From: a virus
Length of the DNA stretch: 13,537 nucleotides
Direction: 5' to 3' (one strand)
IMG/VR virus record: IMGVR_UViG_3300012662_000073
Location: 1-13,537 of that record
Below, one piece after another: positions 77 to 13,169 of this stretch. Under the pieces are notes generated by a model. That model ran no database searches. It saw nothing but the letters and a program-made list of their open reading frames with translations, and was not told where the DNA came from. A program made the translations under genes and the position numbers. The number at the start of each line of letters is the position of its first letter. The stretch's first letter is position 1.

Positions 77-988
77 CTACGCTATATCCTTTCCACCAAG
101 TACAATCTGATCAGAGAATGCATACTGAACACCAGCATTAGCCTCAATAACAAGTCGAAATTCCCTGTTGTCTTTGGAATAGAAGAAATCAAACACCTCT
201 TCATCATTTACGAGGTCGCAACCGAAGAAAAGATCCTGTGGACGAGCAGCAAAAATATAATCAGTTCCGTTAAGACCGTTAACAGCAACTACTCGTACGT
301 TGGTTCCAGGGAAATAAATCTCTTCATCAACTCCCTTGCCATCATAGTGGAAAAGATTCTTCTCCATAAGCTCGTTAGTGAACTTACGATATACATCAGC
401 ACCTACGAAGATAACTGCACCATCAAGAACCTTCTCCGGAATAGCCATATAAACAGCCTTGATAGCACCATATGCACCAGCAGTTACATCTGCATCCACT
501 TTATTGATATTTGCATCAGCCTTAGCAATCTTGAGAAGACCATCGAAAATCTTGAGATTAGCATCACCAGAAGCAGTATCACCCTGCCAAATAGCGGTCT
601 CGATCTTTGCTTTTACATCAGCGATAACAGCGTTAACGAAATCCTCTTCAAACGGAAGTGTCTTCTGTCCAGCTGCTACGCGAACTGCGTACTGCGTCCA
701 ATATTTAAGCATTGTTTTATCGCAGTAAGCCATATTTACTTTGAAATTACCAGTCTTAATCGTACGCTGCGAAAGAGTCTGTGAGCCCTTTTCGTCCCAA
801 CCACAAGCAAGTCCATCACCGAACTCTACATCAGTTGAAAGAAGATTAATAACTGCATCTGTTTTAATATCTGTCTGGAGATTGAACATCGAAGCACTCT
901 TTGCTCCAAGAACAGCCTCCTTAATAAGGGGAAGTCTACGCTCTTCTACATAAGCCGGAAGAGTTGTCATAACTGGTGAATTTGCCAT
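77..988 (-). CDS. Major capsid protein (HK97-fold type), 303 aa
   Basis: Intact ORF from ATG 988 to TAG 79..77. It sits directly after the protease and scaffold-like genes. By eye, length and sequence character are typical of HK97-like capsid proteins. It has three Trp codons, all TGG, and no TGA. Confidence 0.75.
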   Translation of the reverse strand: MANSPVMTTLPAYVEERRLPLIKEAVLGAKSASMFNLQTDIKTDAVINLLSTDVEFGDGLACGWDEKGSQTLSQRTIKTGNFKVNMAYCDKTMLKYWTQYAVRVAAGQKTLPFEEDFVNAVIADVKAKIETAIWQGDTASGDANLKIFDGLLKIAKADANINKVDADVTAGAYGAIKAVYMAIPEKVLDGAVIFVGADVYRKFTNELMEKNLFHYDGKGVDEEIYFPGTNVRVVAVNGLNGTDYIFAARPQDLFFGCDLVNDEEVFDFFYSKDNREFRLVIEANAGVQYAFSDQIVLGGKDIA

Positions 989-990
989 TT

Positions 991-1455
991 CTAAATATAT
1001 TTTTTACAATTTTTAAAAACTGCTCTCAAATCGTCTTTTGGAGCAATAACATCTTCTATTTCTTCTGTAGCTGGTTTAGCAACAGATTTATCTTCAATTG
1101 CATTTATACGCTCAGTAATTGCCTTTTCAAAAGCATCAATACGAGCATACAATTCATTTACCTCTTTACGAAGATTTTCTATATCCTCGGTTTCTTTTTC
1201 TGGAATAACCTCTTCAAGAGTCTCTTTCTCTTCTGGTTCAACAATCTTACCTTCCTTTACTTGGATTGGAGTTTCGTTAACAATATATTCACCATCTGGA
1301 ATATCTGCATATTCTCCATTCTCAGTAACGAGATATACTTCAGAACCAATTTCAAGACTCTCAAAAGCAATCTTTGTTCCGTCTTCAAGAACAACCTCAG
1401 TAAGGTCAGAAAGCATCTTTGCAAGAGCAATTCTTAAATCATTCAATTTACTCAT
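991..1455 (-). CDS. Scaffolding-like acidic coiled-coil protein, 154 aa
   Basis: Intact ORF ending in TAG 993..991, 2 nt before the capsid ATG. It is rich in E/K/I with a heptad-like central region (EEKETLEEVIPEKETEDIENLRKEVNELYARIDAFEKAI). Its position between protease and capsid is the classical scaffold slot. Confidence 0.5.
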   Translation of the reverse strand: MSKLNDLRIALAKMLSDLTEVVLEDGTKIAFESLEIGSEVYLVTENGEYADIPDGEYIVNETPIQVKEGKIVEPEEKETLEEVIPEKETEDIENLRKEVNELYARIDAFEKAITERINAIEDKSVAKPATEEIEDVIAPKDDLRAVFKNCKKYI

Positions 1456-1967
1456 TATCGAGTTGTTTTAATTTTGTTAAACAAATCATCTCTTTTTATC
1501 TCTGCTTCTATAGAGAAGCCAGAGTAGTTTTCATTTATTATTCTGTTATACAGATCTGGATTTTCAACCAAGTAAGTGATAAACAGAGTACCATCTGGTA
1601 GATCCTCAAATCCATTTAAGATATTGCGAGTAGAATCCTTGATATATACTTCTATTGGTTTAATTCCGGTAAGTAGTTGACCATTGTGCATAATCGAAAC
1701 ATTTTTTGTGTTTCCAGATGTAATTAAGTCACTAGCAAACCGTTTAATTGCTTCTTTACTAAAGACTAAGTAATATTCTCCGGATTCATCTCGTCTATAT
1801 ATCTTCATATCTGGAATAAGAATCGGTCCAGTTATTGATCTCTGATTGTTATCTGATTGAAATCGAATCTGTTTATTAAACAGAATAAAATCGCTTTCGA
1901 TTGCTGGTCTATCTACAAGAGATATACAATCTATGAAAGCATTGTTAACGTAATAAACAGGAATCAT
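1455..1967 (-). CDS. Prohead protease, XkdF-like (Peptidase_S78_2-type), 170 aa
   Basis: I prefer ATG 1967 (MIPVYY...), which lies 1 nt after the upstream TAA. The track's GTG start at 1985 would overlap the upstream gene. The pattern ISLVDRPAIESDF ... ITGPILIPDMKIYRRDESGEY ... SGFSIEAEI resembles the XkdF family as I remember it. The TAA stop overlaps the next ATG (TAATG). Confidence 0.6.
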   Translation of the reverse strand: MIPVYYVNNAFIDCISLVDRPAIESDFILFNKQIRFQSDNNQRSITGPILIPDMKIYRRDESGEYYLVFSKEAIKRFASDLITSGNTKNVSIMHNGQLLTGIKPIEVYIKDSTRNILNGFEDLPDGTLFITYLVENPDLYNRIINENYSGFSIEAEIKRDDLFNKIKTTR

Positions 1968-1968
1968 A

Positions 1969-2649
1969 TTAAAAATTATAAACACACTTTATCTTGTTCT
2001 GGGAATGCAATTTAAGTCTACCAGATAAGACAGAGTTATAAAACCTATACTGATATGGAGTAGGAACGTTCTCAGTAACCCAAGTAGCAAGACGGCCAAT
2101 CCTACCAGCCAGGTATGAGAGGGGTGTAATTACGGTTTTTCTACGAGTTTTATAAAAGCAATTCTTCATAAGCAATTGGATTTTCTTTAAGAACTTACGA
2201 AGGCGGTTTTTTCCAACTCCCACATATTCAGCAAGTTGCGCCCAACTCATTTTAATATCAAGAGTGTCGGAAAATGCAGCACATCTCGTTTTGAGAATAA
2301 TCCCCTTTTCAATGGAAGTGTAATTTGCCTTAAGAAAAGATCTGTTTACGAGATAATACGACTTGTAATTAAGTGAAATCACATAATGCTGTTTTCCCAT
2401 CTTACCGCGCCTGTAAGAGAGATTAATTAAACCAACTTTCGCAATTGCCTTTACTAGGTCGGATACTCTGTCCAAATCTTTTATTTTCAAACACTTAGCA
2501 AGATAAGCTCGGTTTACTTGCTGGTGATCTGTAATCATCTTTACGATATATAAATAAGTAGTTGCTTGTACATCAGTAAGCAATCTAACTCTATAATCGA
2601 TTCTGAAATAATTTTTCATAATCATTGTTATTTTAATAATCATTATCAT
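1969..2649 (-). CDS. Winged-helix DNA-binding protein, paralog A (replication-initiator-like or operon regulator)
   Basis: Intact ORF ending in TAA 1971..1969. Possible ATG starts are 2649, 2643, 2625 and 2619. Comparison with paralog B (MNKNYF...) favours 2619 or 2625 (M(IM)KNYF...). It shares the layout KNYF - wHTH - basic beta hairpin (GKQHYVISLNYKSYYLV vs GRKYVDYIIVKPKYYVV) - second HTH with the 12477..13169 product. There are no TGA codons. Confidence 0.55.
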   Translation of the reverse strand: MIMIIKITMIMKNYFRIDYRVRLLTDVQATTYLYIVKMITDHQQVNRAYLAKCLKIKDLDRVSDLVKAIAKVGLINLSYRRGKMGKQHYVISLNYKSYYLVNRSFLKANYTSIEKGIILKTRCAAFSDTLDIKMSWAQLAEYVGVGKNRLRKFLKKIQLLMKNCFYKTRRKTVITPLSYLAGRIGRLATWVTENVPTPYQYRFYNSVLSGRLKLHSQNKIKCVYNF

Positions 2650-2667
2650 TTTAATAGTTAATAGTCT

Positions 2668-2700
2668 AAGAAAACCTCCCAGACCGAATTATCCGGGAGG
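2668..2700 (-). terminator. Rho-independent terminator-like hairpin upstream of paralog A
   Basis: The minus strand reads CCTCCCGGATAATTCGGTCTGGGAGG followed by TTTTCTT. The stem is 6 perfect bp (2675..2680 / 2695..2700), extendable with G-U pairs. Confidence 0.5.
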
Positions 2701-2769
2701 ACCATTTCAAAATCGACTATCGAGAGAAAAACAAAACTCTCTCTATATATAATGTAAGGGGGTACACAC

Positions 2770-2789
2770 TTTTTGGGCATTTTTGGGCC
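2770..2789. repeat. Tandem 10-bp repeat TTTTTGGGC(N) x2 (minus strand GCCCAAAAA)
   Basis: The copies at 2770..2778 and 2780..2788 are identical. They are followed in the direction of transcription by TATATATA and a hairpin, mirroring the layout upstream of paralog B. Confidence 0.6.
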
Positions 2790-2800
2790 TAATTTTGAAT

Positions 2801-2875
2801 AATTTTTTTAATTTTTTTCGTAAGTGATTGATAATCATCGAGAAAAAATTTAAAATTTTTTTTAAAATTTTTTTT
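2801..2875. promoter_or_regulatory. AT-only phased T-tract block with a central inverted repeat (candidate DNA-unwinding or bent element)
   Basis: AATTTTTTT occurs x2 (2801..2818) and AAAATTTTTTTT x2 (2852..2875). These flank TTTTTTTCG-taagTGATTgatAATCAt-CGAGAAAAAA. Confidence 0.45.
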
Positions 2876-2986
2876 CGGAGACTCAACAATTCCTTTACCT
2901 GGCTTGTAGGATCATCCAAAATAAGACAATCAAAAGATTCTTTTTCGGAGCCAGCGGGAGAGTTTCTTTATAGTACATTGTAAATA

Positions 2987-3004
2987 TATGAAATATATTT
3001 CATA
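2987..3004. repeat. 18-bp perfect palindrome TATGAAATATATTTCATA
   Basis: Read directly from the sequence. It lies 27 nt downstream of the terminase stop. The stem is AT-only, so it is weak as a terminator. Confidence 0.6.
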
Positions 3005-3030
3005 CACTAGGGTGTCTCATTATCAATAAG

Positions 3031-4230
3031 TTAACCTATTCTGTATGTTCCGAGGTTTTTTTTGATTGCATAACAAGTAATTGCGAGTGACATACAAGCA
3101 TCATCTGGACAATTCTTTCCTGCGTATGTTATAAGATTTCCTTTATAAACGGCTTGAAATGCTTGTAGTTCTCTAATCAACTCTTTGTTGTTAATTATTT
3201 TTATTCGTTTTTGTTCAAAAAGTATTTGTAATCACTCTACAATATCTCTTTTACTCGAATTGGTTGTAGTTCATTCTGTTATCGGAATTGTAGTGTATTT
3301 CTTTAAGAGATCGATGTATGCCTTTCCCATCGAATTGCCTTCGCAAACTACTTTATTCGGTTTGTATTTATTAACGATCTCAGCAATTCATTTAACTCGT
3401 TCAACGGGCTCTAGCTGGTTGTTATATTGGAAATCAATCATTTCGTAATCTCTATTCATAACTGTTACAGCAGTATAATCTCCACCAACAGACGAACTAC
3501 AATCCACTCCTATTACTAGCCCGTTTTTGTGGGTAGGTTCTCCAACTGCATCTAGTATATTATTAAAAAGCAATCCTTGTCCTGCTGGAGCGAATTGTCC
3601 TAGTATTTCAGTCATATAACGCATTGGAGAATATTGTTCTTTTAAACGATCTAATTCTTCAGGCGAATAAACGAGATTCACATATTTCGATCAATCATAA
3701 ACAATTGTGTTTTTATTGTTATAAAGATCTCAAATATATCCCTCTGCCGTTAACGGGCTGGAAATATAAATAGTCAACGCTTTCTTCACCCTACGTAAAG
3801 GGAGTGCAGTCATAATAAAATCCGGGTCGAGAAAACAACATTCATCTAGCACAAGAAAGTTTTCCGCAGTTAATCCTCGTAAGGAGTCTTTTTGTTGTCC
3901 CGATCTAAAAAAGATTCTGGAACCATTTATGAAACATAATTCAAGTGTTTGGTAATTCACTTGCTTTATAAGGTTTGCTCCATTTAACATTTTAACAACA
4001 TCCTGCATTTGTGATCGAGATTGTTGTAACGTAGGTGCAATATAAACCCCATCTCCAATTAATTCAAGAGATGATTTAATCATCAAAAGAGCGATTGTAG
4101 AGCTTTTAAAAAATTGTCTCGGCGCAATTATGAGTATATCTTTATTTTGGTTTCGGAAACCCATCCGAGTAACATCAGACAGCAACTCTTTTTGCCAAAC
4201 TGTCAGATTGTTTGGAAGTACTATTTTCAT
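3031..4230 (-). CDS. terL: Terminase large subunit, 399 aa, with five in-frame TGA codons
   Basis: The gene runs from ATG 4230 to TAA 3033..3031. It has a Walker A-like motif IIAPRQFFKSST, Walker B LVLDE, coupling motif ISSP and nuclease-domain acidic motifs (VIGVDCSS..GGDYTAVTV; CPDDACMSLAI). Track fragments 3730..4230 and 3388..3681, plus the untracked 3031..3387, are in one frame. They are joined by TGA at 3730, 3691, 3388, 3271 and 3232. Confidence 0.8.
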
Positions 4231-4232
4231 AT

Positions 4233-4667
4233 TTATTCAATCTTTATTTCGCTCTGTTTTAAATTATATAAACGCTCCCAAGTAATTCGAGAGTTAATTA
4301 AGTGATCTTTATTTCATTGTCCTACTCCAATACAGCCTTGTGTTTCCGAAACTCAGTTCAGTGGGTGACATAACACACCTTCCCAGCAAGGCACATCAAG
4401 TAAACGAGGCATCTTTCCATCACAAAAATCTTTGTAGTATTTAATCTTACTGTATTTGGGAGATTTTATTTCATACGATATTTTATATGTCCCAGTAGGA
4501 ATTGCTGTCTTAGAAGGGATTTTAACCCGCTTTATAAGGCTTGTAGGATCATCTTTTTTAAGGCCTCTATCAGTTGGTTCAAGAGTATCACAAAAGTATT
4601 TGTTGTCGATATATAATTCTCCCTGCGTATACTCTGGTTGTTTGTTTGTTCTTTTTAAAATTAGCAT
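4233..4667 (-). CDS. DUF5675-like protein (possible cell-wall-active enzyme), 144 aa, with two in-frame TGA codons
   Basis: The gene runs from ATG 4667 to TAA 4235..4233. The pattern TQGELYIDNKYFCDTLEP ... AIPTGTYKI ... MPRLLDVPCWEGVLCHPLN-TGA-VSETQGCIGVGQ matches my memory of DUF5675 (T.G.L..C.TLE .. IP.G.Y .. VP...iH.GN...T.GCI.vG). The TGA codons are at 4353 and 4314. Confidence 0.5.
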
Positions 4668-4670
4668 ATT

Positions 4671-4713
4671 AAAAAGTCTGCCAGGTTGTCATACTACTGT
4701 CAGAATGGCAGAC
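4671..4713 (-). terminator. Terminator-like hairpin 3 nt upstream of the DUF5675 start codon
   Basis: The minus strand reads GTCTGCCA-(22 nt)-TGGCAGAC TTTTT AAT ATG. The stem is 8 perfect bp (4676..4683 / 4706..4713). Confidence 0.45.
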
Positions 4714-5163
4714 ATTATTTCTGGCATAGTATTTGTATATATAATATTCGGATCGAGATACACCTCGATAGGATAGTGGGAAAGGGAAAGCCCTCCGATG
4801 TAGTAGAAACTAAAGTATAGCCTGCATTGAGCCTCAGTTGTGTTAATTGATTTTAAGATGAATTAATCTTAAATAGCACCTGCCAAAAAGACCATCACAT
4901 ATAACAAGGGAACTTGCAAAGTGTATTTCAGAGTGAAGCAAGTAGTGGTACTCAGCCACTCCTAAGTGAAGATAAACTCAGCGATCTTACTCGGTAGTCA
5001 TTCCAGAAGACAACGTTGAAGGGAACAAAATTCTTTGTAACGGGTTTATAACCGATTGATTTAATCGTTACTTGGTTTTGTTTTAAAAGACTTTCTCACT
5101 GCCCACCCCCTATATTAAGAGTGATTGGTAATCGAAACTTGCTTTAATAACAAAAGCGAGTAA
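4714..5163. ncRNA. Candidate structured noncoding RNA or long cis-regulatory leader (class not recognised)
   Basis: TAA/TAG stops are dense in all six frames even when TGA is read as sense. Local G/C-rich patches are unusual for this genome (GGGAAAGGGAAAGCCCTCC 4778..4796; GCCCACCCCC 5101..5110). There are several local helices: 4752..4757/4764..4769, 4852..4859/4866..4873, 4912..4917/4938..4943, 4944..4948/4956..4960 and 5053..5057/5063..5067. I could not fold a tRNA. Confidence 0.25.
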
Positions 5164-5196
5164 GGGGAAACTATTCCCTATATGAAACGTTTCCCC
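5146..5196 (-). terminator. Terminator-like hairpin after the tape-measure-like gene
   Basis: The minus strand reads GGGGAAAC-(17 nt)-GTTTCCCC with 8 perfect bp (5164..5171 / 5189..5196), starting 10 nt after the TAG. The following tract TTACTCGCTTTTGTTATT is only moderately T-rich. Confidence 0.4.
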
Positions 5197-5206
5197 ATAG
5201 ACTACT

Positions 5207-8095
5207 CTAGAAAGTTGCATTATCGTTAACTACTTTTACTCGGTTTTGAGCATCAGTAATATCTCTTTCAGTAACATAAACTTTAATTGGTTTGTTAACT
5301 TCATCTATCTCTTTATCTCCGAGTAAGTTACGAGTATATTCTATATTCGGTTGAGTAACAGCAGGCGGAGTAACAGTAGATGCAGATACACTACTTGATG
5401 AACTGAATTGCGTTCTTTGAATTTGTACAACATTTGCAATACCAGCCGCAATTGCAGCAGCAGCCGCAGCAGCACCTAAAAACGGTCCAACATACGGTAT
5501 TGATGCCATTGATTGATAAGAACTATTCGCAGCAGCATAAGTATCCATAATTGCTTGTGTAGTTGCAGCTACCTTATAAGTAGTAAATGCTTTTTTACGT
5601 TGTTCTTCACTCAGTTTTTCGTTTTGTGATTCAGTTTGTGCTATACTAGCCAGACTACTCATTACATTGCTTGCTACACTAAGAGTTGATTGTAATGCTA
5701 GTCGTTTCTTTGCTTGTACAGCATCATATGCTTTTGCGTTATCTTGTTCGTTTTTAATTGCTGCATCACTAAGAGCTATTTCATTCTCTTTAAGAGTACG
5801 CTCTATCTCCAGACGTTGATCAGCAGTTAATTGACTATTCGATAATTGTTCCGTTAAAAGTTTGTTTTCGGCATCTATACGCTGCTTTGTAAGAGCATAA
5901 AGATCATTGTTATACTTGATTGTGTCTGCATATTGTTTTTGGACATCCTCTTTTGATTGATATGTAAATACTTCATTACGATCGAATCCTGCTCCAAATG
6001 CTCTACTAAACTTTTGTCCGTATCTAGTGTTATATGCTTGCTCTTGTGGTTGTCTCAGATTGCTTGTATCACTCAGTTGTCTTATTCGAGCTAGTTCTTC
6101 CTTAAATTGATCATATCTGCTCTTTTGATTCTCTTTTTCATCTTGCTTGTTCTTATCCAGATATTTATTCAATATCTCGTTCTTCTTAACAAGATATATT
6201 TCATCGATTCGAGTACTATCTACACCATATCGTTCAGCCAGAGAAAGCATCTCTTGATACTGTTCATCTAATGCGTTAATTGCATTCTCTTTCTCAGTAT
6301 AAAAGAGTTTTTCAGATTCTTTTAAAAAGCTATTCAGTGCTTCGAGATCTTTATCAATCTCAGTTTTCGTAGTACTACCAGATCCCTCTTTGTCTTTACT
6401 AGCCCAGAAAGGTTTGTATTTCTTTCGGAGTTCCTCTGTTTTGTTCGTTATGTTACTAACAAACTCTGTATATGATTCCTCGTTCTCTTTAAGTGCTTTA
6501 TCTACTTGTGCTTTATTCGCTACTCGTATTGTCTCTACGCTTGTTCCAGTAGCGTATTGTGCTGCATTTTGTAATGCTTTTTGGAGATCTTCTGCACCCT
6601 GTCTTTCGATTTCTAATTGATTGTTGATATACTCAGTAGTCTTCTCAGAAATCTTCTGTCTATATGCATCTATTTGTGCTCTTGCTATAATTGCATTTTT
6701 ATAATCCTCTGTATTATTAACAAAAGCATCTTCAGCATCTTTAACGTCATTTATCTTTAATCCAGTTTTCTCGATTTGTTCGGAGTACTCTTTTAAAAAC
6801 TCCTTTTTATCACCAAACTGATTGTAAACGTTCAAGAGTTCATTAAACGCAGCAAGACTATCTCCAGCTAATTCAGATGTAGTTTTATTAATTGCTTTGT
6901 TAAATTCCTGTTGTGCTTTACTTGCTTTGTAAGTAGCAGCAATTCATTCAAACAATTTAAAAACTGCTGCTGTTATCACTGTTATTAAGGCTGTCCAACC
7001 CACTGTTGAAATTACACTCTTTGTAGCAGACCAAGCTTTACCAAGTTTTGATTGTGCAAACTCAGCCTTTTGTAAGGCAGATTCATATTGCTGTAATTCC
7101 TTTACTTGGCCCGCTTCTTGGTATTGTAAGTCTTTTAAGACTTCTTTTAGCCCTGTGGTTCCGTTCGCGTACTTTTGTTGTACTTGTATTGCTTTATTGT
7201 AGTCCAATCCCATTCCTTGGAGAGCCGCTTTTGCATTTATTCTCGCATCAACAAGAGATTGTCCGTACTGCTCTTGTAATTCCTTTACTTGGTCGTAGTA
7301 TATCGACAATGTCCTATCTGATTCTGAGACTTCTTGGATCTGTTGTTTTACAACTTCAATCGACTTCTGTGTATTAGCAATTAAGTTCTTTTGTCGGCTA
7401 ATTACCTTTGTTTGGTTTGTAATATATTTATCCCACTGTTCATTAACCGGTACAATCGTTTTTTGTTGCTGTTGTAATGCTTGTGTAGTCTGTGCAATTT
7501 CTTTTGATCCACCAGAAACACTTGTAGATATGTTCACATCTCCTATTCCAGCAAGATCTTTAATCGGTTGTATATCCAAGCTATTTAAGGCTTGCGCAGA
7601 TTCTGTTATTCGTCTATTAAACGGACTCAGATTCTCAAACAAGTCGAGTACGCCATCTTTTAAACGATCGAATCATCCTTTTATTGTTGGTAAACTATTT
7701 GCAAGTCCTTCCAATCCACCAATTCCTTGTACAACTGCAATTCCTCCTTGGAGTTTTACAAGCACCTTACTAAGATCATCACCACTCTTACCAAGTAAGG
7801 CAAGTAGTCCATTTAATGCACCGAATCCACCTGCCAATCCAGATCCGATTCGAGAAAGATTCGCTAATTGATCAGCCAGCTTTTGGGTATTCTGCTGGCT
7901 AATCTTATTAACGTTATTTAATTGTGCTTCGTATTGATTTAATCTCTCTATTGTTTTTGTATATTCAGCACTAGTCTTATCTAGGCTTGCTAAATAATCT
8001 TTTAAAGAGTTAATCTCTTTTTTAAGCTGTCTAACGTTTGTAACCGCTTTACCGGTTTGTACGTCAACTATTTTGGTAATTACTGTTTCTGCCAT
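5207..8095 (-). CDS. Tape-measure-like or internal ejection-like protein, 962 aa, with two in-frame TGA codons
   Basis: The gene runs from ATG 8095 to TAG 5209..5207. Track fragments 7673..8095, 6944..7642 and 5207..6835 share one frame and are joined by TGA at 7673 and 6944. The TTG 'starts' of the two downstream fragments are internal Leu codons. The protein has long Q/E/K-rich coiled-coil stretches plus Gly/Ala-rich hydrophobic segments (GSGLAGGFGALNGLLALLG; VGPFLGAAAAAAAIAAGIANVV), as in tape-measure proteins. Confidence 0.6.
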
Positions 8096-11000
8096 TATAA
8101 ACTAATTGTTATATCATCTGTTCCAGCAGTTATCTGGAAACGTCTAATTACTGTTCCTCGTCTATTTATCAACTGTATTTCAAATGCTTCATTTCTCGGT
8201 CCGTATATCAATCAAGATTTATTAAAATCATCAAACGAGTAAGTGTATCTATCATCCTCACTAACTACACTCATTCACATTGTATCAAGAGTAAGTAAGT
8301 TTTCAATCACTTTTATATTTCTTGCTTTACTTGGGTTCGGGAGCGTCTCCATTCTAAACGATTGTGTGTATTTATATAACCTGCTAGTAAACGTCCAATA
8401 TGCTACTTCACTATGTCAAGTATCATTTATGCTTGTTTGTGCAGTAATCTCTGTAGTACCAGCATCTCCACTAGTTATATCTGGTTCAAGATATTGTGAA
8501 TCACTTTCTACCGTTCAACTATCAGCAGCAAGGAGAGTCCCTTCATATTGTCCACTATCATATCTGGTTGTTAACGGACTCAGAGTAAATCCATATGTAT
8601 AATCTGGTTGTCCATTTGTATATGCATTTATATCATTTACTCGTATAAACTCAAATTGTTGTGGTTCTTTACTTTCCGGAGAGTAATCGTTTGCCTTATT
8701 TAAGATATAAACTGTATTATCAATCAAATAAAACGAGTTCAAATCAATTTCATCAAGTAATGCTCAACAAGTAAGCTTTCTTGTGTTCTCGTTAAAGAGA
8801 TCATTATAATATTCTTTATTAAACCTGTTATAAATGCATTTATCGTCTGTGTATTCAACTCCTGGTATAAATCATTCTTTTGGTCATCCTAAATCAAGAC
8901 TATCTGTTACTTGGTTGTCATTAATCAAATAACTAGAGTAACTCGGTATTTTATCAAGCTTGTATGCAATTCGTTCACCAGCCTTGTTATATTCGCTTGT
9001 AGTGTACAAAAAGCATCTTTCTTCATTCAGATCAAACATTTCTTGTGTATCATCAGATAACCAGTATATCTGTGGAGTATCGAAATATCCGTTATAAAAG
9101 ACTAAGCTTGCTTTAAAATCACTAGTGGACTTACTTTTATCAAAGAAACAAGGCTTGTAATTGCTATCCTGTCCAGCGAGTATTCCTCAATCACTAATCT
9201 TATTTATATATTCCGAACCATATAAAGTCTGTGTTGTGGAGTCATCTTTTGTCTTAAAAAGAGTTCATTCACAATTATCAACCAAGAAACAAGGTTGTTC
9301 AGTAGATCCCTTAAAATAACTTCGATAATATTTACTGGAGTCTCTTGCCGTTATTGCTTGTTGGAAAACATTATCACTCAGTAATTCATTTATATCACTG
9401 TTAAATTCATATCCAGTGTCAATTCGTTGTTGTCCGTATTCTATATTATATCTATTCTTATATTTGCTTGCGTAATATGTTTCCGGAGTCTCCAGTTTCA
9501 TTAAATATCATTTCTTATCAAATAACAAGGGTTCAATCGTAATCTCTTTCGAGTAGTCTATTTTGCCTGTTATATCAATAATATTTCTTTTAAAGAAACT
9601 ATTTCTCGATTTTATGTTAATCTCATTATTAACTCGATCTATCTCAAAATATAATCCAAAGAGTTTCGCATAACTAATCAAATAATCAGCAGCAGAGTCT
9701 TCTGTAGTAAGCAATTTCTTTTTGGTAATCAATGTGTTTGTTCCAACCGTATAATCAGACTTGATTGTTATCGAGCTTGTTTGTGCAGTAAAGTTCATTT
9801 CACCAGCATATCCAGAACCAATCTCAATTTCATCTTTTGTAGGATAAAGTTTTGTAACCCTTTCACTATAAAAAACGGAGTACCAACTTGCTTTCACAAC
9901 AATTTTAACACTGTCAGCAGGTTTCACCAAATCAGTAATTGTAAGATGTATCGTTTTATCAAATTTAAAAGTATCTCCAGACTTTATAAAAGCACCATCC
10001 ATTAAAGTACTGTTTGCATCTGTTTCAGGAGTATATCCCATTCAGTTATTCGGTTGTGGTGTCTTGCTGTCACTCAGTCTGTTTGTAATATTATAAATAT
10101 TCGAGTAGCCAACAATTTTATTATTATCATCAAGTAACTGTACTTGTAATGCAATTGAACCACCAGCAGTACTAACTATATTACCTCTTTCAAAAGTAGC
10201 AGCCATATAAAGAGTATTATCCGAGATTTCATCATCTGGTTGGAAATTAATGTCAATCGGTATATCAATATCAATTGTACTATCATTCGAGTAACCAGAT
10301 AAATCAATTGTCTCAGAACCATCCTTTTTAAAAGGAAATGTGTTATCCGGTAGAGAACTATTTATATTTCCGAGATCACTTGTTATTTCGCTTGTAGATT
10401 CATTTCCAGATTCACTTTCTTGATCAGCACCAAGTAACGGTAGAGTAATATAAGATTGTTCCCAATAAGGATTTTTTGGACTAAATCAGCTTGGATCGAG
10501 ATTCACTTGATATCCTGTATTGTCTTTATTTAAAATCGCCTTAAAAAGCTCTTTAAGCCTCAATGCAGGTCTTTGTTTGTAAGATCGTAAATCTCGTATT
10601 TCCCATTCCGTATAAGATTCATTCAGTTTGGCTAATCCATATCCGTTATATAATTTATATTCTCCATTCACACTAGGGAAACTAGTTCCAGATTGATTCA
10701 CTAAACAAGAACTTGTATCAAACTCTTCATATAATCCGTTATATGCAGGTATAAACTTTAATAAACTATGTAAACCATCTTCAGATCCATTAAAAGAGTC
10801 ATAAACCCATTCTTTATTTATGCTAAACCTAAAATAAGTATCATCATCACTTGTATAAGTAATATCAGCAAGTGTTCTTGTGGAGCCATCTTCTTTATAT
10901 CTAAGATTGTAAAAGAAATCACCAAGCAAACCATATAAGTTAATATTATATGCTCGCTTGGTAATGCTAGTCAGTTGCATATATCCTCTTTCAAATAAAC

Positions 11001-11250
11001 AACCGTTTCTAAGTATAACGAAATCAACTCTCTTTCTTGGATTGAAAGTCTGTTCTGTTTGTTGTCTATCTAATCTGTATATATCATCAAAAATCTTGTT
11101 GTTGTTATCTGTTCTCGGTATTTCTATGCTAACCGAGTAAGGATTCTTTATTGCTGTTGGATTGTATATCTCCAATTGGCTATAAGTCATTCCGAGAGAT
11201 ATATCATCATTCAGATCAACTTTCTTGTTATTTATATATAATTCTACCAT
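8095..11250 (-). CDS. Large tail/baseplate protein (host-recognition candidate), 1051 aa, with twelve in-frame TGA codons
   Basis: The gene runs from ATG 11250 to TAA 8097..8095, which overlaps the next ATG as TAATG. Hand translation shows a single open frame through TGA at 10486, 10042, 9508, 9265, 9187, 8884, 8872, 8764, 8515, 8416, 8275 and 8212. This joins track fragments 10486..11250, 9508..10041, 9265..9501 and 8515..8742 with the untracked stretches between them. The composition is beta-rich (N/Y/T/S/D), typical of fibre and baseplate proteins. Confidence 0.6.
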
Positions 11251-12068
11251 CGAAATTGTGTTCTAGCGGATTTCAAAGTAAGTTCAAGCCTACTAAATCT
11301 CTTTTTAAAATCATAACTAGTTGTATCAATTAAAACTGGCTCAATAATGTTTTTATCTAGACTGTGTAAGTAAACTTTTGGACTATTTAACAAGTGATGT
11401 ATATTCTCCTTGTTAATTGTATAACCAGTAACAACGTCATAACTGTTTGTAAACTCAGTTAAGTACCTCCTTGTAAGAGTATCATCCAAGTAATCATAAT
11501 TCGTTTTGTTCTCAGATTTATTTGCTTTCACAAGTAAACTATCTCAACCACCAAACTCGTTCAAGTAATATATTGCGTAATCACCACAACTCATTTTGTA
11601 TTTAAACTCTTGAAACGTACTAGTAAACGAAATATTTCCAGTAGTCTTTTGTGAATAAACGTTTGCTTCATTACTAGCAGGTAACGCAGTACCATTTATT
11701 TTCGGATTCACATCTTTCAAGTAAGAGAAAATCAAATATTGTCTTGCATCATATAAATCATCAATCGGAGCAGAAATATATGTTGCATCACTATCTGTAT
11801 ATTCTTGATTGTTTGTTATATAATCATCTATTCCAGTTGATGTTTCAAAATATCTTTTCCAGTTAACTAAGCCTTGTGTTTGTTTCGGGAGATCTCCAGA
11901 GTCTATATATTTCTTTATAAGATCGTTTATTTTAACGCTTATCTTACCGGTGTTTGGATTTCTCCAAGCTTTTCCAGTAAAAACTGTTTCATCATCTATT
12001 TTAATTCAGTAGTCTGTGTATTCTTTATTAACTACTTGTTCATCTATTATTGGATAACCTATATTCAT
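11244..12068 (-). CDS. Tail-associated structural protein, 274 aa, with two in-frame TGA codons
   Basis: The gene runs from ATG 12068 to TAG 11246..11244, overlapping the next ATG by 7 nt (ATGGTAG). The TGA codons are at 12006 (..TDY-TGA-IKIDD..) and 11544 (..YYLNEFGG-TGA-DSLLV..). It joins track fragments 11544..11735 and 11244..11531. Confidence 0.55.
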
Positions 12069-12484
12069 ATCGAGTCTATCAATTTATTTGTTTGTATATC
12101 TATTTCTTTATCAAGGTTCGGTTCTATTATATCTAACGACCTTTCTAAGATGTGTTTGCCAGGTATGCCTTTCTTAGCAATGCTCTTTGCAATTGCTCAA
12201 CTAAGATTTCTTTCTAAGGGCAAGTGTTTGTTTTTTATCCAATTCTCTATAAGAGCAATCGGAGGTTGTTTTCCAGGTAATCGACCATTCTCTATATATT
12301 CGTAATAATCAGCAATTGATAATCAAACCGATCAATTATCCGATTGCTCTTGTGTAGTAACACTAAGACTGTTTGAAAGATTTCCAGTTGTGTTAATATT
12401 CTCTTTATTTAACAATTCTCTGTAAGAGTTTATAAATTCTTCTCCAGAGTGTTCTAAAACTGTATCTAAATCAAGTCTATTCAT
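12059..12484 (-). CDS. Hypothetical virion or assembly protein, 141 aa, with four in-frame TGA codons
   Basis: The gene runs from ATG 12484, overlapping the upstream wHTH stop by 8 nt (ATGAATAG), to TAG 12061..12059. The TGA codons are at 12332, 12323, 12197 and 12065. It is invisible in the standard-code track because the first TGA comes after 50 codons. The product reads MNRLDLDTVLEHSGEEFINSYRELL...ADYYEYIENGRLPGKQPPIALIENWIKNKHLPL... Confidence 0.5.
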
Positions 12485-13169
12485 CCTTTTGTTTTTTTAA
12501 TAATCCGGAAATCATTTTGTCATATATCTCGTTTGCTTTCGGGATAATATAAAGTTGATTTTCATAAAACCAACTTGCTTGTTTATAAAGCTTGCTAGTA
12601 GGATCACCCGTAGTAAGGATCATATTCAATTCATTCATTCTATTATCCGAAAGATGCGTTGTAGCGAAAATTGGGAAATACTCTCCAGATAAAGCATAGC
12701 CGTCATCAACCACTGTTATAATGCCCGATTCAATTAAACGCTTCTTGTAAGAGAAATAGGCAGTTCTTCCTATTTGGAGATGCTTTATAATATCGTTATC
12801 CGAGTACTTTATTTGGTTTGTTCCATTAATTCTTAATTCGGCTAGTTTAATTGCCAATACTCCCAATTCTTTGTATTGTAGGATAGCGTTCATACAAACT
12901 ACATAATACTTCGGTTTGACAATTATATAGTCCACATATTTTCTTCCGTTTACAAAGCGGTACTCCTTTCTTATATAGCCATCTTTTTGAAATTGATTTG
13001 TCATTCTAGTAACGACATCTGCTTTCTTTATTCCGGTAAGTTCCATTATCTTTCCTCGGCTTATGTGGCTGACTTTTGAGTCGCTATTCATCATAATTAG
13101 CGCAAGCACATAATCCTCTTTTAAGAGGTAACATCTCTTGGTTGGCATTACAAAATAATTTTTATTCAT
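12477..13169 (-). CDS. Winged-helix DNA-binding protein, paralog B (replication-initiator-like or operon regulator), 230 aa
   Basis: Intact ORF from ATG 13169 to TAG 12479..12477. The N-terminal pattern KNYFVMPTKRCYLLKEDYVLALIMM..ISRGKIMELTGIKKADVVTRMTNQFQKDGYI resembles RepA_N / DnaD-type wHTH initiators from memory. It has a second HTH-like segment (DIIKHLQIGRTAYFSYKKRLIESGII), no TGA and one TGG. Confidence 0.6.
   Translation of the reverse strand: MNKNYFVMPTKRCYLLKEDYVLALIMMNSDSKVSHISRGKIMELTGIKKADVVTRMTNQFQKDGYIRKEYRFVNGRKYVDYIIVKPKYYVVCMNAILQYKELGVLAIKLAELRINGTNQIKYSDNDIIKHLQIGRTAYFSYKKRLIESGIITVVDDGYALSGEYFPIFATTHLSDNRMNELNMILTTGDPTSKLYKQASWFYENQLYIIPKANEIYDKMISGLLKKQKDE

What the first reader, a model, noticed from the sequence alone, without database searches (positions are those of the whole stretch)
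3031..12484. TGA is decoded as a sense codon: 27 in-frame TGAs, and 19 ORF fragments collapse into six long late genes
Every break between consecutive minus-strand ORF fragments in this span is a TGA ('tca' on the plus strand), and the next fragment continues in the same frame. The positions (first plus-strand base) are listed by gene.
- Terminase: 3732-3730, 3691, 3388, 3271, 3232.
- DUF5675-like: 4353, 4314.
- Tape-measure-like: 7673, 6944.
- 1051-aa tail protein: 10486, 10042, 9508, 9265, 9187, 8884, 8872, 8764, 8515, 8416, 8275, 8212.
- 274-aa protein: 12006, 11544.
- 141-aa protein: 12332, 12323, 12197, 12065.
All 12 gene ends I could read are TAA or TAG, never TGA. After merging, the genes abut or overlap by 1-8 nt (TAATG, ATGGTAG, ATGAATAG), which is normal phage packing. 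Local contexts look like Trp positions: EFGG-x-DSL, LG-x-PKE-x-F, DPS-x-FSPKNPYW, and SSPLTAEGYI-x-DLY in the terminase, where homologs usually carry an aromatic residue. A table-4-like TGA->Trp assignment therefore seems most likely. Gly (table 25) cannot be excluded by eye. Standard-code annotation would report this locus as short hypothetical fragments.
Basis: partly seen in the sequence, partly recalled or inferred. Interest (0 to 1): 0.85.

Follow-up and report, generated by a model that had tools for sequence, protein, structure and literature searches.

The report
Gut phage reads TGA as tryptophan

Summary
All 27 listed TGA positions are in-frame TGAs on the minus strand. The six reading frames contain 28 in-frame TGAs, no TAA and no TAG. 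Treating TGA as sense raises long-ORF coverage of the span from 61% to 95%.

Homologues run colinearly through every break. TGA columns align with Trp or other aromatic residues and almost never with Gly. Standard-code relatives carry TGG at several of these columns and end 12 of 63 genes in TGA. TGA and TGG swap freely between recoded relatives. This is code 4 (TGA to Trp), not code 25.

The window is about half of a 27-28 kb phage found at over 99% identity in several gut metagenomes, mostly with code-4 gene calls. Relatives include a prophage in Alistipes, so the host is probably a standard-code Bacteroidales bacterium (inferred).

Two refinements:
- Recoding is not simply a late-gene feature. 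The head-gene block has 0 TGA against 15 TGG.
- No suppressor tRNA was found anywhere in the reconstructed genome.

This matches the alternatively coded gut phages of Borges et al. What decodes TGA stays unknown.

The parts
3031..4230 (-). Large terminase subunit, 399 aa, with 5 in-frame TGA (3730, 3691, 3388, 3271, 3232) and 1 TGG; stop TAA
   Evidence: Pfam Terminase_6N and Terminase_6C span the TGAs and PHROG 2 matches. Full-length homologues of 395-423 aa exist. W dominates 4 of the 5 TGA columns. Relatives have TGG at these columns.
4233..4667 (-). DUF5675 protein, 144 aa from ATG 4667 or 164 aa from ATG 4727; TGA at 4353 and 4314, plus 4689 if the longer start is used; stop TAA
   Evidence: Pfam DUF5675, E=2e-22, aligns across both TGAs. 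Residue 1 of the L095 homologue aligns at 4667.
5207..8095 (-). Tape-measure-like protein, 962 aa, with TGA at 7673 and 6944; stop TAG
   Evidence: Coordinates. Weak PHROG tape-measure matches, E around 1e-8. The L095 homologue is colinear at 72% identity.
8095..11250 (-). Large tail protein, 1051 aa, with 12 in-frame TGA and 6 TGG; stop TAA
   Evidence: Coordinates. There are 110 homologues, many full length. The TGA columns are mostly W, F or Y. Standard-code relatives have TGG at position 581.
11244..12068 (-). 274-aa virion-module protein with TGA at 12006 and 11544; stop TAG
   Evidence: Coordinates. Position 175 (EFGGxDSL) is TGG in both standard-code relatives, and TGG or TGA in recoded ones.
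12059..12484 (-). 141-aa protein with TGA at 12332, 12323, 12197 and 12065; stop TAG. The last TGA overlaps the ATG of the next gene (ATGA), so it could be read as sense or as a stop
   Evidence: Position 96 aligns with F or Y in relatives.
12477..13169 (-). 230-aa helix-turn-helix protein (weak DnaD-like and AF_0843 matches) heading the recoded block; no TGA
77..2649 (-). TGA-free head block: a 216-226 aa protein (1969-2649), an XkdF-type prohead protease (1455-1985), a 154-aa scaffold-like protein (991-1455) and a 303-aa capsid-like protein (77-988). It has 5 TGG and 0 TGA
   Evidence: Over the whole head module the count is 0 TGA against 15 TGG, Fisher p=1.6e-5. The capsid-like protein is 55% identical to its L094 homologue and 79% identical to the L093 (Alistipes prophage) homologue over the 52 residues that locus holds.
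4668..5206 (.). Non-coding gap of about 0.5 kb between the tape-measure-like gene and the DUF5675 gene; no tRNA and no Rfam family
   Evidence: The relative L095 has a 364-aa gene at this place.
2650..3030 (.). Non-coding gap of about 0.38 kb between the terminase gene and the head block

Best explanation
The window is about half of a 27-28 kb tailed-phage genome written in genetic code 4. TGA is never a terminator in it and is translated as tryptophan, interchangeably with TGG. Genes end only in TAA or TAG. This much is shown.

The following is inferred. The host is a standard-code, diderm Bacteroidales bacterium. That makes this one of the alternatively coded gut phages described by Borges et al., in which a host-incompatible codon sits in many packaging, tail and lysis genes. 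Recoding is patchy. The head-gene block has no TGA at all, most likely because it was recently exchanged with a standard-code relative; selection against costly suppression in very highly expressed genes is the alternative.

The agent that reads UGA is not a recognisable phage-encoded suppressor tRNA. It must be one of three things: a tRNA supplied by the host or a co-resident element, a phage factor that makes host tRNA-Trp read UGA or disables release factor 2, or a non-canonical RNA. This step is not resolved.
For: Sequence and coding:
- All 27 TGA coordinates are verified. In-frame counts are 28 TGA, 0 TAA and 0 TAG.
- Long-ORF coverage of the span rises from 61% to 95% with TGA as sense.
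- Profiles and homologues are colinear across the TGAs.

Amino-acid assignment:
- W or aromatic residues, not Gly, sit at the TGA columns.
- Standard-code relatives have TGG at the same columns.
- Of 12 W-W columns shared with the recoded relative L001, 7 are TGA/TGG swaps.
- All TGAs are kept in a 99%-identical strain from another sample.

Stop-codon use:
- Standard-code relatives use TGA as a stop in 12 of 63 genes and have no in-frame TGA. This phage has 0 TGA stops in 34 genes, with 45 TGA and 46 TGG in frame.

Host:
- The standard-code relative L093 is integrated next to Alistipes genes. Its peptidyl-prolyl isomerase is an exact match to WP_087404663.
- Relatives carry BACON domains. The L094 integrase has the Arm-DNA-bind_5 domain.
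- Only 6 of 34 genes have even a 4-mer Shine-Dalgarno core upstream.
- A lipobox plus C-terminal transmembrane protein that looks like a spanin is present.

tRNA:
- No tRNA was found by ARAGORN, at default or relaxed settings, or by Rfam anywhere in the reconstructed genome.

Literature: Borges et al. (bioRxiv 10.1101/2021.08.26.457843) describe such phages down to 14.7 kb. Only 35% of their code-4 genomes had a detectable TGA suppressor tRNA.
Against: - The host of this particular phage is not shown. No prophage relative was found among GTDB species representatives, and CRISPR spacers could not be tested.
- With no suppressor tRNA, and with TGA also present in early-region genes, a host that natively reads TGA would be the simpler mechanism.
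- There is no protein-level evidence; peptides spanning TGA sites are untested.
- The whole-genome statement rests on a composite of two strains (L091 plus L006), not on one closed contig.
Confidence: 0.88

Rival explanations
1. The phage simply mirrors its host. The host natively reads TGA as Trp (code 4, as in Mycoplasmatales or some unrecognised gut lineage), so no code-switch machinery is needed.
For: - No suppressor tRNA was found in the whole genome.
- TGA occurs in early-region genes as well as late ones, and no gene ends in TGA.
- One head-module protein matches DUF285, a family named after Mycoplasma.
Against: - The closest standard-code relatives are Bacteroidales prophages in Alistipes, and relatives carry BACON domains and a Bacteroidetes-type integrase arm domain.
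- The capsid-like protein is 55% identical to its L094 homologue and 79% identical to the Alistipes-prophage (L093) homologue over 52 residues.
- A spanin-like lipoprotein implies an outer membrane (by reading).
- Only 44% of genes carry TGA. The TGA share of Trp codons is 49%, against 66-75% A-ending in comparable codon pairs, and a 6 kb block has none. Borges et al. report about 90% of genes recoded in phages of natively recoded hosts.
Confidence: 0.1
2. TGA encodes glycine (code 25), as in phages of Absconditabacteria and Gracilibacteria.
For: TGA is a sense codon and GC content is low. One variable tail column has Gly in 9 of 42 homologues.
Against: Gly appears once in 210 cells of the TerL TGA columns and is essentially absent from the tail columns, against a background of 5.5%. 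W reaches 60% of TerL cells against a background of 1.2%. Standard-code relatives have TGG at these columns.
Confidence: 0.01
3. The TGAs are real stops. The locus would then be a decayed, non-functional phage remnant, a sequencing or assembly artefact, or a case of selenocysteine or occasional read-through.
For: One public annotation of the same phage (the record behind L008) calls only fragments under code 11.
Against: - Every interruption is a TGA, with no frameshifts and no TAA or TAG.
- The TGAs are identical in independent assemblies from different samples.
- Downstream segments align colinearly with homologues.
- Twelve stops in one 1051-aa gene rule out low-level read-through.
- Trp or aromatic columns are not Cys/Sec sites.
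Confidence: 0.01

Closest known systems
Alternatively coded (stop-codon-recoded) gut phages using code 4, TGA to Trp (Borges et al. 2021/2022; earlier Ivanova et al. 2014)
   Same: - In-frame TGA sits in packaging, tail and lysis genes.
- TGA aligns to Trp, GC content is low, and TGA is not used as a stop.
- Close standard-code relatives exist in which TGA stops are depleted.
- Only part of the gene set is recoded.
- The predicted host is a standard-code Bacteroidetes bacterium.
- The genome is small, within the range of the Garnet, Amethyst and Topaz clades (22-34 kb).
- One near-identical public contig (SRR1747046_scaffold_154) follows the scaffold naming used in that study.
   Different: - No suppressor tRNA was found. 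This is true of about 65% of their code-4 genomes too.
- The head-gene block, although late, is TGA-free, and some early-region genes are recoded. The simple pattern of early genes in standard code and late genes recoded therefore does not hold here.
TAG- or TGA-recoded crAss-like and Lak phages of Bacteroidetes (Yutin et al.; Devoto et al.; Peters et al. 2022, which validated TAG to Gln by proteomics)
   Same: The host phylum is the same, and a stop codon is used as sense in late genes.
   Different: Those genomes are 95-660 kb and usually encode suppressor tRNAs, and sometimes release factors. This genome is about 27 kb and has none. The terminase is unrelated at close range; the best match among GenBank phage records is 22.5% identical.
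Phages of natively recoded hosts (Mycoplasma and Spiroplasma phages with code 4; Absconditabacteria phages with code 25)
   Same: TGA is a sense codon and the phage carries no tRNA of its own.
   Different: Here the residue is Trp, not Gly. Recoding is partial, and the host signals point to Bacteroidales.

Membership tests
Code-4 alternatively coded phage (TGA to Trp) | In-frame TGA in conserved phage genes, with translation continuing colinearly with homologues | tested here: met
Code-4 alternatively coded phage (TGA to Trp) | Coding density rises when TGA is treated as sense, but not when TAG is | tested here: met
   Coverage of the span is 61% under code 11, 95% with TGA as sense and 63% with TAG as sense
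Code-4 alternatively coded phage (TGA to Trp) | TGA columns align with Trp, including TGG codons in standard-code relatives | tested here: met
Code-4 alternatively coded phage (TGA to Trp) | TGA is not used as a terminator | tested here: met
   0 of 34 genes here against 12 of 63 in standard-code relatives. One ambiguous ATGA overlap lies at 12065.
Code-4 alternatively coded phage (TGA to Trp) | Phage-encoded UCA suppressor tRNA (frequent in the group but not obligatory) | tested here: not met
   None found in the window or the reconstructed genome, even at relaxed thresholds
Code-4 alternatively coded phage (TGA to Trp) | The host uses the standard code | tested here: inconclusive
   Indirect only: a relative is a prophage in Alistipes, relatives carry BACON domains, Shine-Dalgarno motifs are largely absent, and a spanin-like lipoprotein is present. 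No direct link to a host was found.
Code-4 alternatively coded phage (TGA to Trp) | Peptides spanning the recoded codons | not testable with these tools
   Needs metaproteomics of the source samples
Code-25 phage (TGA to Gly) | Gly at TGA columns | tested here: not met
Named Borges clades (Garnet, Amethyst, Topaz) | The terminase falls inside the clade with at least 95% bootstrap support | not testable with these tools
   Clade sequences and the supplementary tables are not held

The most novel reading that the evidence does not exclude
This 34-gene phage of a standard-code Bacteroidales host switches UGA to Trp without any tRNA of its own, using a protein or non-canonical RNA encoded among its 19 TGA-free genes. 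Such a factor might inhibit RF2 or alter host tRNA-Trp. If so, this would be a minimal, tractable system for finding the missing code-switch mechanism of the roughly 65% of code-4 phages that have no detectable suppressor tRNA.
Probability: 0.2. Interest if true: 0.85.

Novelty: new member of a known kind. Interest (0 to 1): 0.3.

Why it matters
In practice, code-11 annotation shatters this locus into short hypothetical fragments, as one public record of the same phage shows. Recognising code 4 is needed to annotate it and to recognise it as a phage.

Biologically it adds little to what is known about stop-codon recoding in gut phages. One point does stand out. This is a very small genome with no suppressor tRNA, heavy TGA use and a cleanly TGA-free head block. 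That makes it a compact test case for two open questions: what decodes UGA in phages that lack a tRNA, and how modules move between standard-code and recoded relatives.

Tried and rejected
- **Phage nucleotide search.** Megablast of the window against GenBank phages found nothing. A protein-level terminase search found only hits of 25% identity or less.
- **GTDB genome scans for prophage relatives.** Two accepted scans found no relative.
- **Hunt for a hidden suppressor tRNA.** ARAGORN was run at 90, 80, 70 and 60% of its thresholds, with introns allowed and in mitochondrial mode. An anticodon stem-loop motif scan and Rfam at E up to 10 were also run. Only noise came back.
- **TGA-free early and head proteins.** Pfam and PHROG searches found nothing related to translation.
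- **Distant IMG/VR terminase loci.** These are too divergent (24-30% identity) to test Trp conservation. They show only aromatic preference at TerL positions 167, 180 and 320.
- **Published Borges et al. paper.** The paper and its tables could not be opened, so it could not be confirmed that this genome is listed there.
- **Possible paralogy.** I suspected that the 216-aa protein (1969-2649) is a paralogue of the 230-aa helix-turn-helix protein. BLASTP does not support this.
Full report
**Observation**

With only TAA and TAG as stops, the minus strand of 3031-12496 resolves into six long reading frames. Under code 11 the same stretch is a string of same-frame fragments, each ending in TGA. A 28th, at 4689, counts only if the DUF5675 gene starts at ATG 4727.

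In the coding frames there are 28 TGA, 0 TAA and 0 TAG. The two off-frames hold 235, 252 and 151. ORFs of at least 100 codons cover 61% of the span under code 11, 95% with TGA as sense and 63% with TAG as sense. The longest ORF grows from 542 to 1051 codons, while shuffled sequence never exceeded 274. The junctions ATGAATAG, ATGGTAG and TAATG are real.

**What the genes are**

- The 399-aa protein is a large terminase. Terminase_6N and Terminase_6C both align across the TGAs.
- The next gene is a DUF5675 protein, and its profile also aligns across the TGAs.
- The 962-aa protein has weak tape-measure matches.
- The 1051-aa protein has 110 homologues, many of them full length, in phage-like contigs.
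- Downstream in the direction of transcription, at window 77-2649, lie an XkdF-type prohead protease, a scaffold-like protein and a 303-aa capsid-like protein.

**Which amino acid**

In 42 terminase homologues, four of the five TGA columns are W in 18, 40, 34 and 32 sequences, and F, Y, H, R or I in the rest. The fifth column is variable. W fills about 60% of these cells against a background of 1.2%. Gly fills 1 of 210.

In 107 homologues of the tail protein, W is the commonest residue at four TGA columns and F or Y at six more. Gly enters the top six residues of only one, variable, column.

Many database proteins may themselves be code-4 translations, so I checked codons directly:
- L003, a relative that translates under code 11 and has no in-frame TGA, has TGG at terminase positions 180, 281 and 320.
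- L004, whose terminase gene ends in TGA, has TGG at position 180.
- Against the recoded relative L001, 7 of 12 shared W columns are TGA/TGG swaps. That is how synonymous codons behave.

Code 25 is excluded.

**The whole genome**

The capsid-like protein of the window occurs on 11 contigs read. Three of them, of 26,711, 26,775 and 26,795 bp, come from different samples and start at different points of the genome. The window is 99.6% identical to them.

Joining L091 and L006 gives a closed composite of about 28.2 kb. In its 34 genes there are 45 in-frame TGA and 46 TGG. Fifteen genes carry TGA, and all 34 stops are TAA or TAG. All TGAs of the six window genes are unchanged in the L091 strain.

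Standard-code relatives (L003, L004, L093, L094) have no in-frame TGA, 197 TGG, and TGA as the stop of 12 of 63 genes. The two low-GC relatives use it only 2 times in 13 and 2 in 19. This fits the stop-depletion route to recoding proposed by Borges et al..

**Patchiness**

The head block, from window 77-2649 onward to the gene just upstream of the portal gene, has 0 TGA against 15 TGG. The rest of the genome has 45 against 31 (Fisher p=1.6e-5). Other A/G-ending codon pairs in the head block are 48-63% A-ending, so the absence of TGA is not a composition effect.

The block is richer in GC: its four largest genes run at 40-42%, while most genes elsewhere run at 30-36%. Its capsid-like protein is 55% identical to that of the standard-code relative L094. 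It is 79% identical to that of the Alistipes prophage L093 over the 52 residues available. Terminase and tail proteins are only about 31-39% identical to those relatives. The block is also TGA-free in the close recoded relative L095, whereas L001 has a different, TGA-containing head gene.

I read this as a module exchanged with a standard-code relative. Selection against suppression in very highly expressed genes is the alternative.

Conversely, several early-region genes do carry TGA: a 129-aa protein whose C-terminus looks like sigma-factor region 4 (by reading only), a PDDEXK nuclease and a helix-turn-helix protein. The label of late genes recoded is therefore only roughly right.

**Host (inferred)**

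- The relative L093 lies on an 82.7 kb contig next to PurT and a peptidyl-prolyl isomerase that is an exact match to an Alistipes protein. A second, independent assembly shows the same junction.
- Tail proteins of relatives, including the recoded L001, carry BACON domains.
- The L094 integrase has the Arm-DNA-bind_5 domain.
- Only 6 of 34 genes have even a 4-mer Shine-Dalgarno core upstream, as expected for Bacteroidota from established knowledge.
- A 145-aa protein with a lipobox-like N-terminus and a C-terminal transmembrane helix looks like a spanin, and it has 3 TGA and 0 TGG (by reading).

Together these point to a diderm, standard-code Bacteroidales host. No direct link to a host was obtained.

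**Mechanism of decoding**

No tRNA of any kind was found in the window, in the composite genome, or in the loci held for five recoded relatives. ARAGORN was used at default and strongly relaxed thresholds, and Rfam at gathering score and at E up to 10. The TGA-free proteins show no translation-related domain.

Borges et al. detected TGA suppressor tRNAs in only 35% of code-4 phages, and they state that the mechanism is open. The decoder here is therefore unknown. A tRNA from the host or a co-resident element, a phage factor acting on tRNA-Trp or RF2, and a non-canonical RNA all remain possible.

**Comparison with what is known**

This is the phenomenon described by Ivanova et al. 2014 and surveyed by Borges et al.. 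That survey covers code-4 phages of standard-code Firmicutes and Bacteroidetes, genomes down to 14.7 kb, small clades of 22-34 kb, partial recoding concentrated in structural and lysis genes, and closely related standard-code phages.

One near-identical contig (SRR1747046_scaffold_154, ENA ERZ5839825) follows that study's scaffold naming, but I could not open its tables. Three of the four public assemblies shown for this phage carry code-4 gene calls; the fourth, L008, is fragmented under code 11. No GenBank phage record is close.

**Verdict**

This is a member of a known kind and of low to moderate interest. The only open thread is the absence of any phage-encoded suppressor tRNA in so small a genome.

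Noticed in passing
window 77-2649 (and L006 8370-14488): The head-gene block has no TGA at all: 0 TGA against 15 TGG, while other A/G codon pairs there are 48-63% A-ending. Its four largest genes have higher GC (40-42%). Its capsid-like protein is much closer to standard-code Bacteroidales prophages (55% to L094; 79% to L093 over 52 residues) than the terminase or tail proteins are. It looks like a module swapped in from a standard-code relative.
   Followed up: partly
window 4668-5206: This is a gap of about 0.5 kb with no convincing ORF. The only one, 4853-5143, needs 4 TGAs and reads like junk. There is no tRNA or Rfam match. The close relative L095 has a 364-aa helix-turn-helix-family gene at this position, so the gap may be a deletion scar or a regulatory region.
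   Followed up: partly
L095 9589-11007: In a close recoded relative the DUF5675 gene is 472 aa instead of about 144-164 aa. Residues 1-108 and 426-472 match the window gene, with about 317 extra residues between them, and a GIY-YIG/NUMOD gene lies next to it. This may be an intein or another mobile insertion.
   Followed up: no
window 12059-12068: The last TGA of the 141-aa gene (12065) overlaps the ATG of the 274-aa gene as ATGA, the classic stop/start overlap. Under code 4 the gene runs two codons further (W-I) to TAG. The arrangement is the same in the L095 and L096 relatives. It cannot be decided whether this one TGA is sense or a relic stop.
   Followed up: partly
window 12477-13169; L091 5451-6125; L006 16926-17618 (minus strand): Three similar proteins of about 225-230 aa, with helix-turn-helix features and weak DnaD-like and AF_0843 matches, occur in one 27 kb genome. 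Each sits at the head of a gene block, and L095 has a further 364-aa relative. They may be module-specific regulators. The 216-aa protein at window 1969-2649 is not detectably related.
   Followed up: partly
L006 15505-15942: A 145-aa protein has a lipobox-like N-terminus (LLFASC) and a C-terminal transmembrane helix, which makes it look like a spanin. All 3 of its Trp codons are TGA. This matches the reported bias of lysis genes towards recoded codons and implies a diderm host.
   Followed up: no
L008 compared with L006, L007 and L009: Public annotations of the same phage disagree. Three assemblies carry code-4 gene calls (proteins of 1051, 962 and 399 aa). The record SRR1747046_scaffold_154 carries code-11 fragments of 254, 54, 177, 78 aa and so on.
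   Followed up: yes
L091 670-1255 compared with L006 18572-19289: The strains differ at a GIY-YIG homing-endonuclease gene, which is 183 aa in L006 and a 113-aa version in L091. The composite genome is about 1.5 kb longer than the 26.7-26.8 kb contigs, so there is indel variation in the early region.
   Followed up: no
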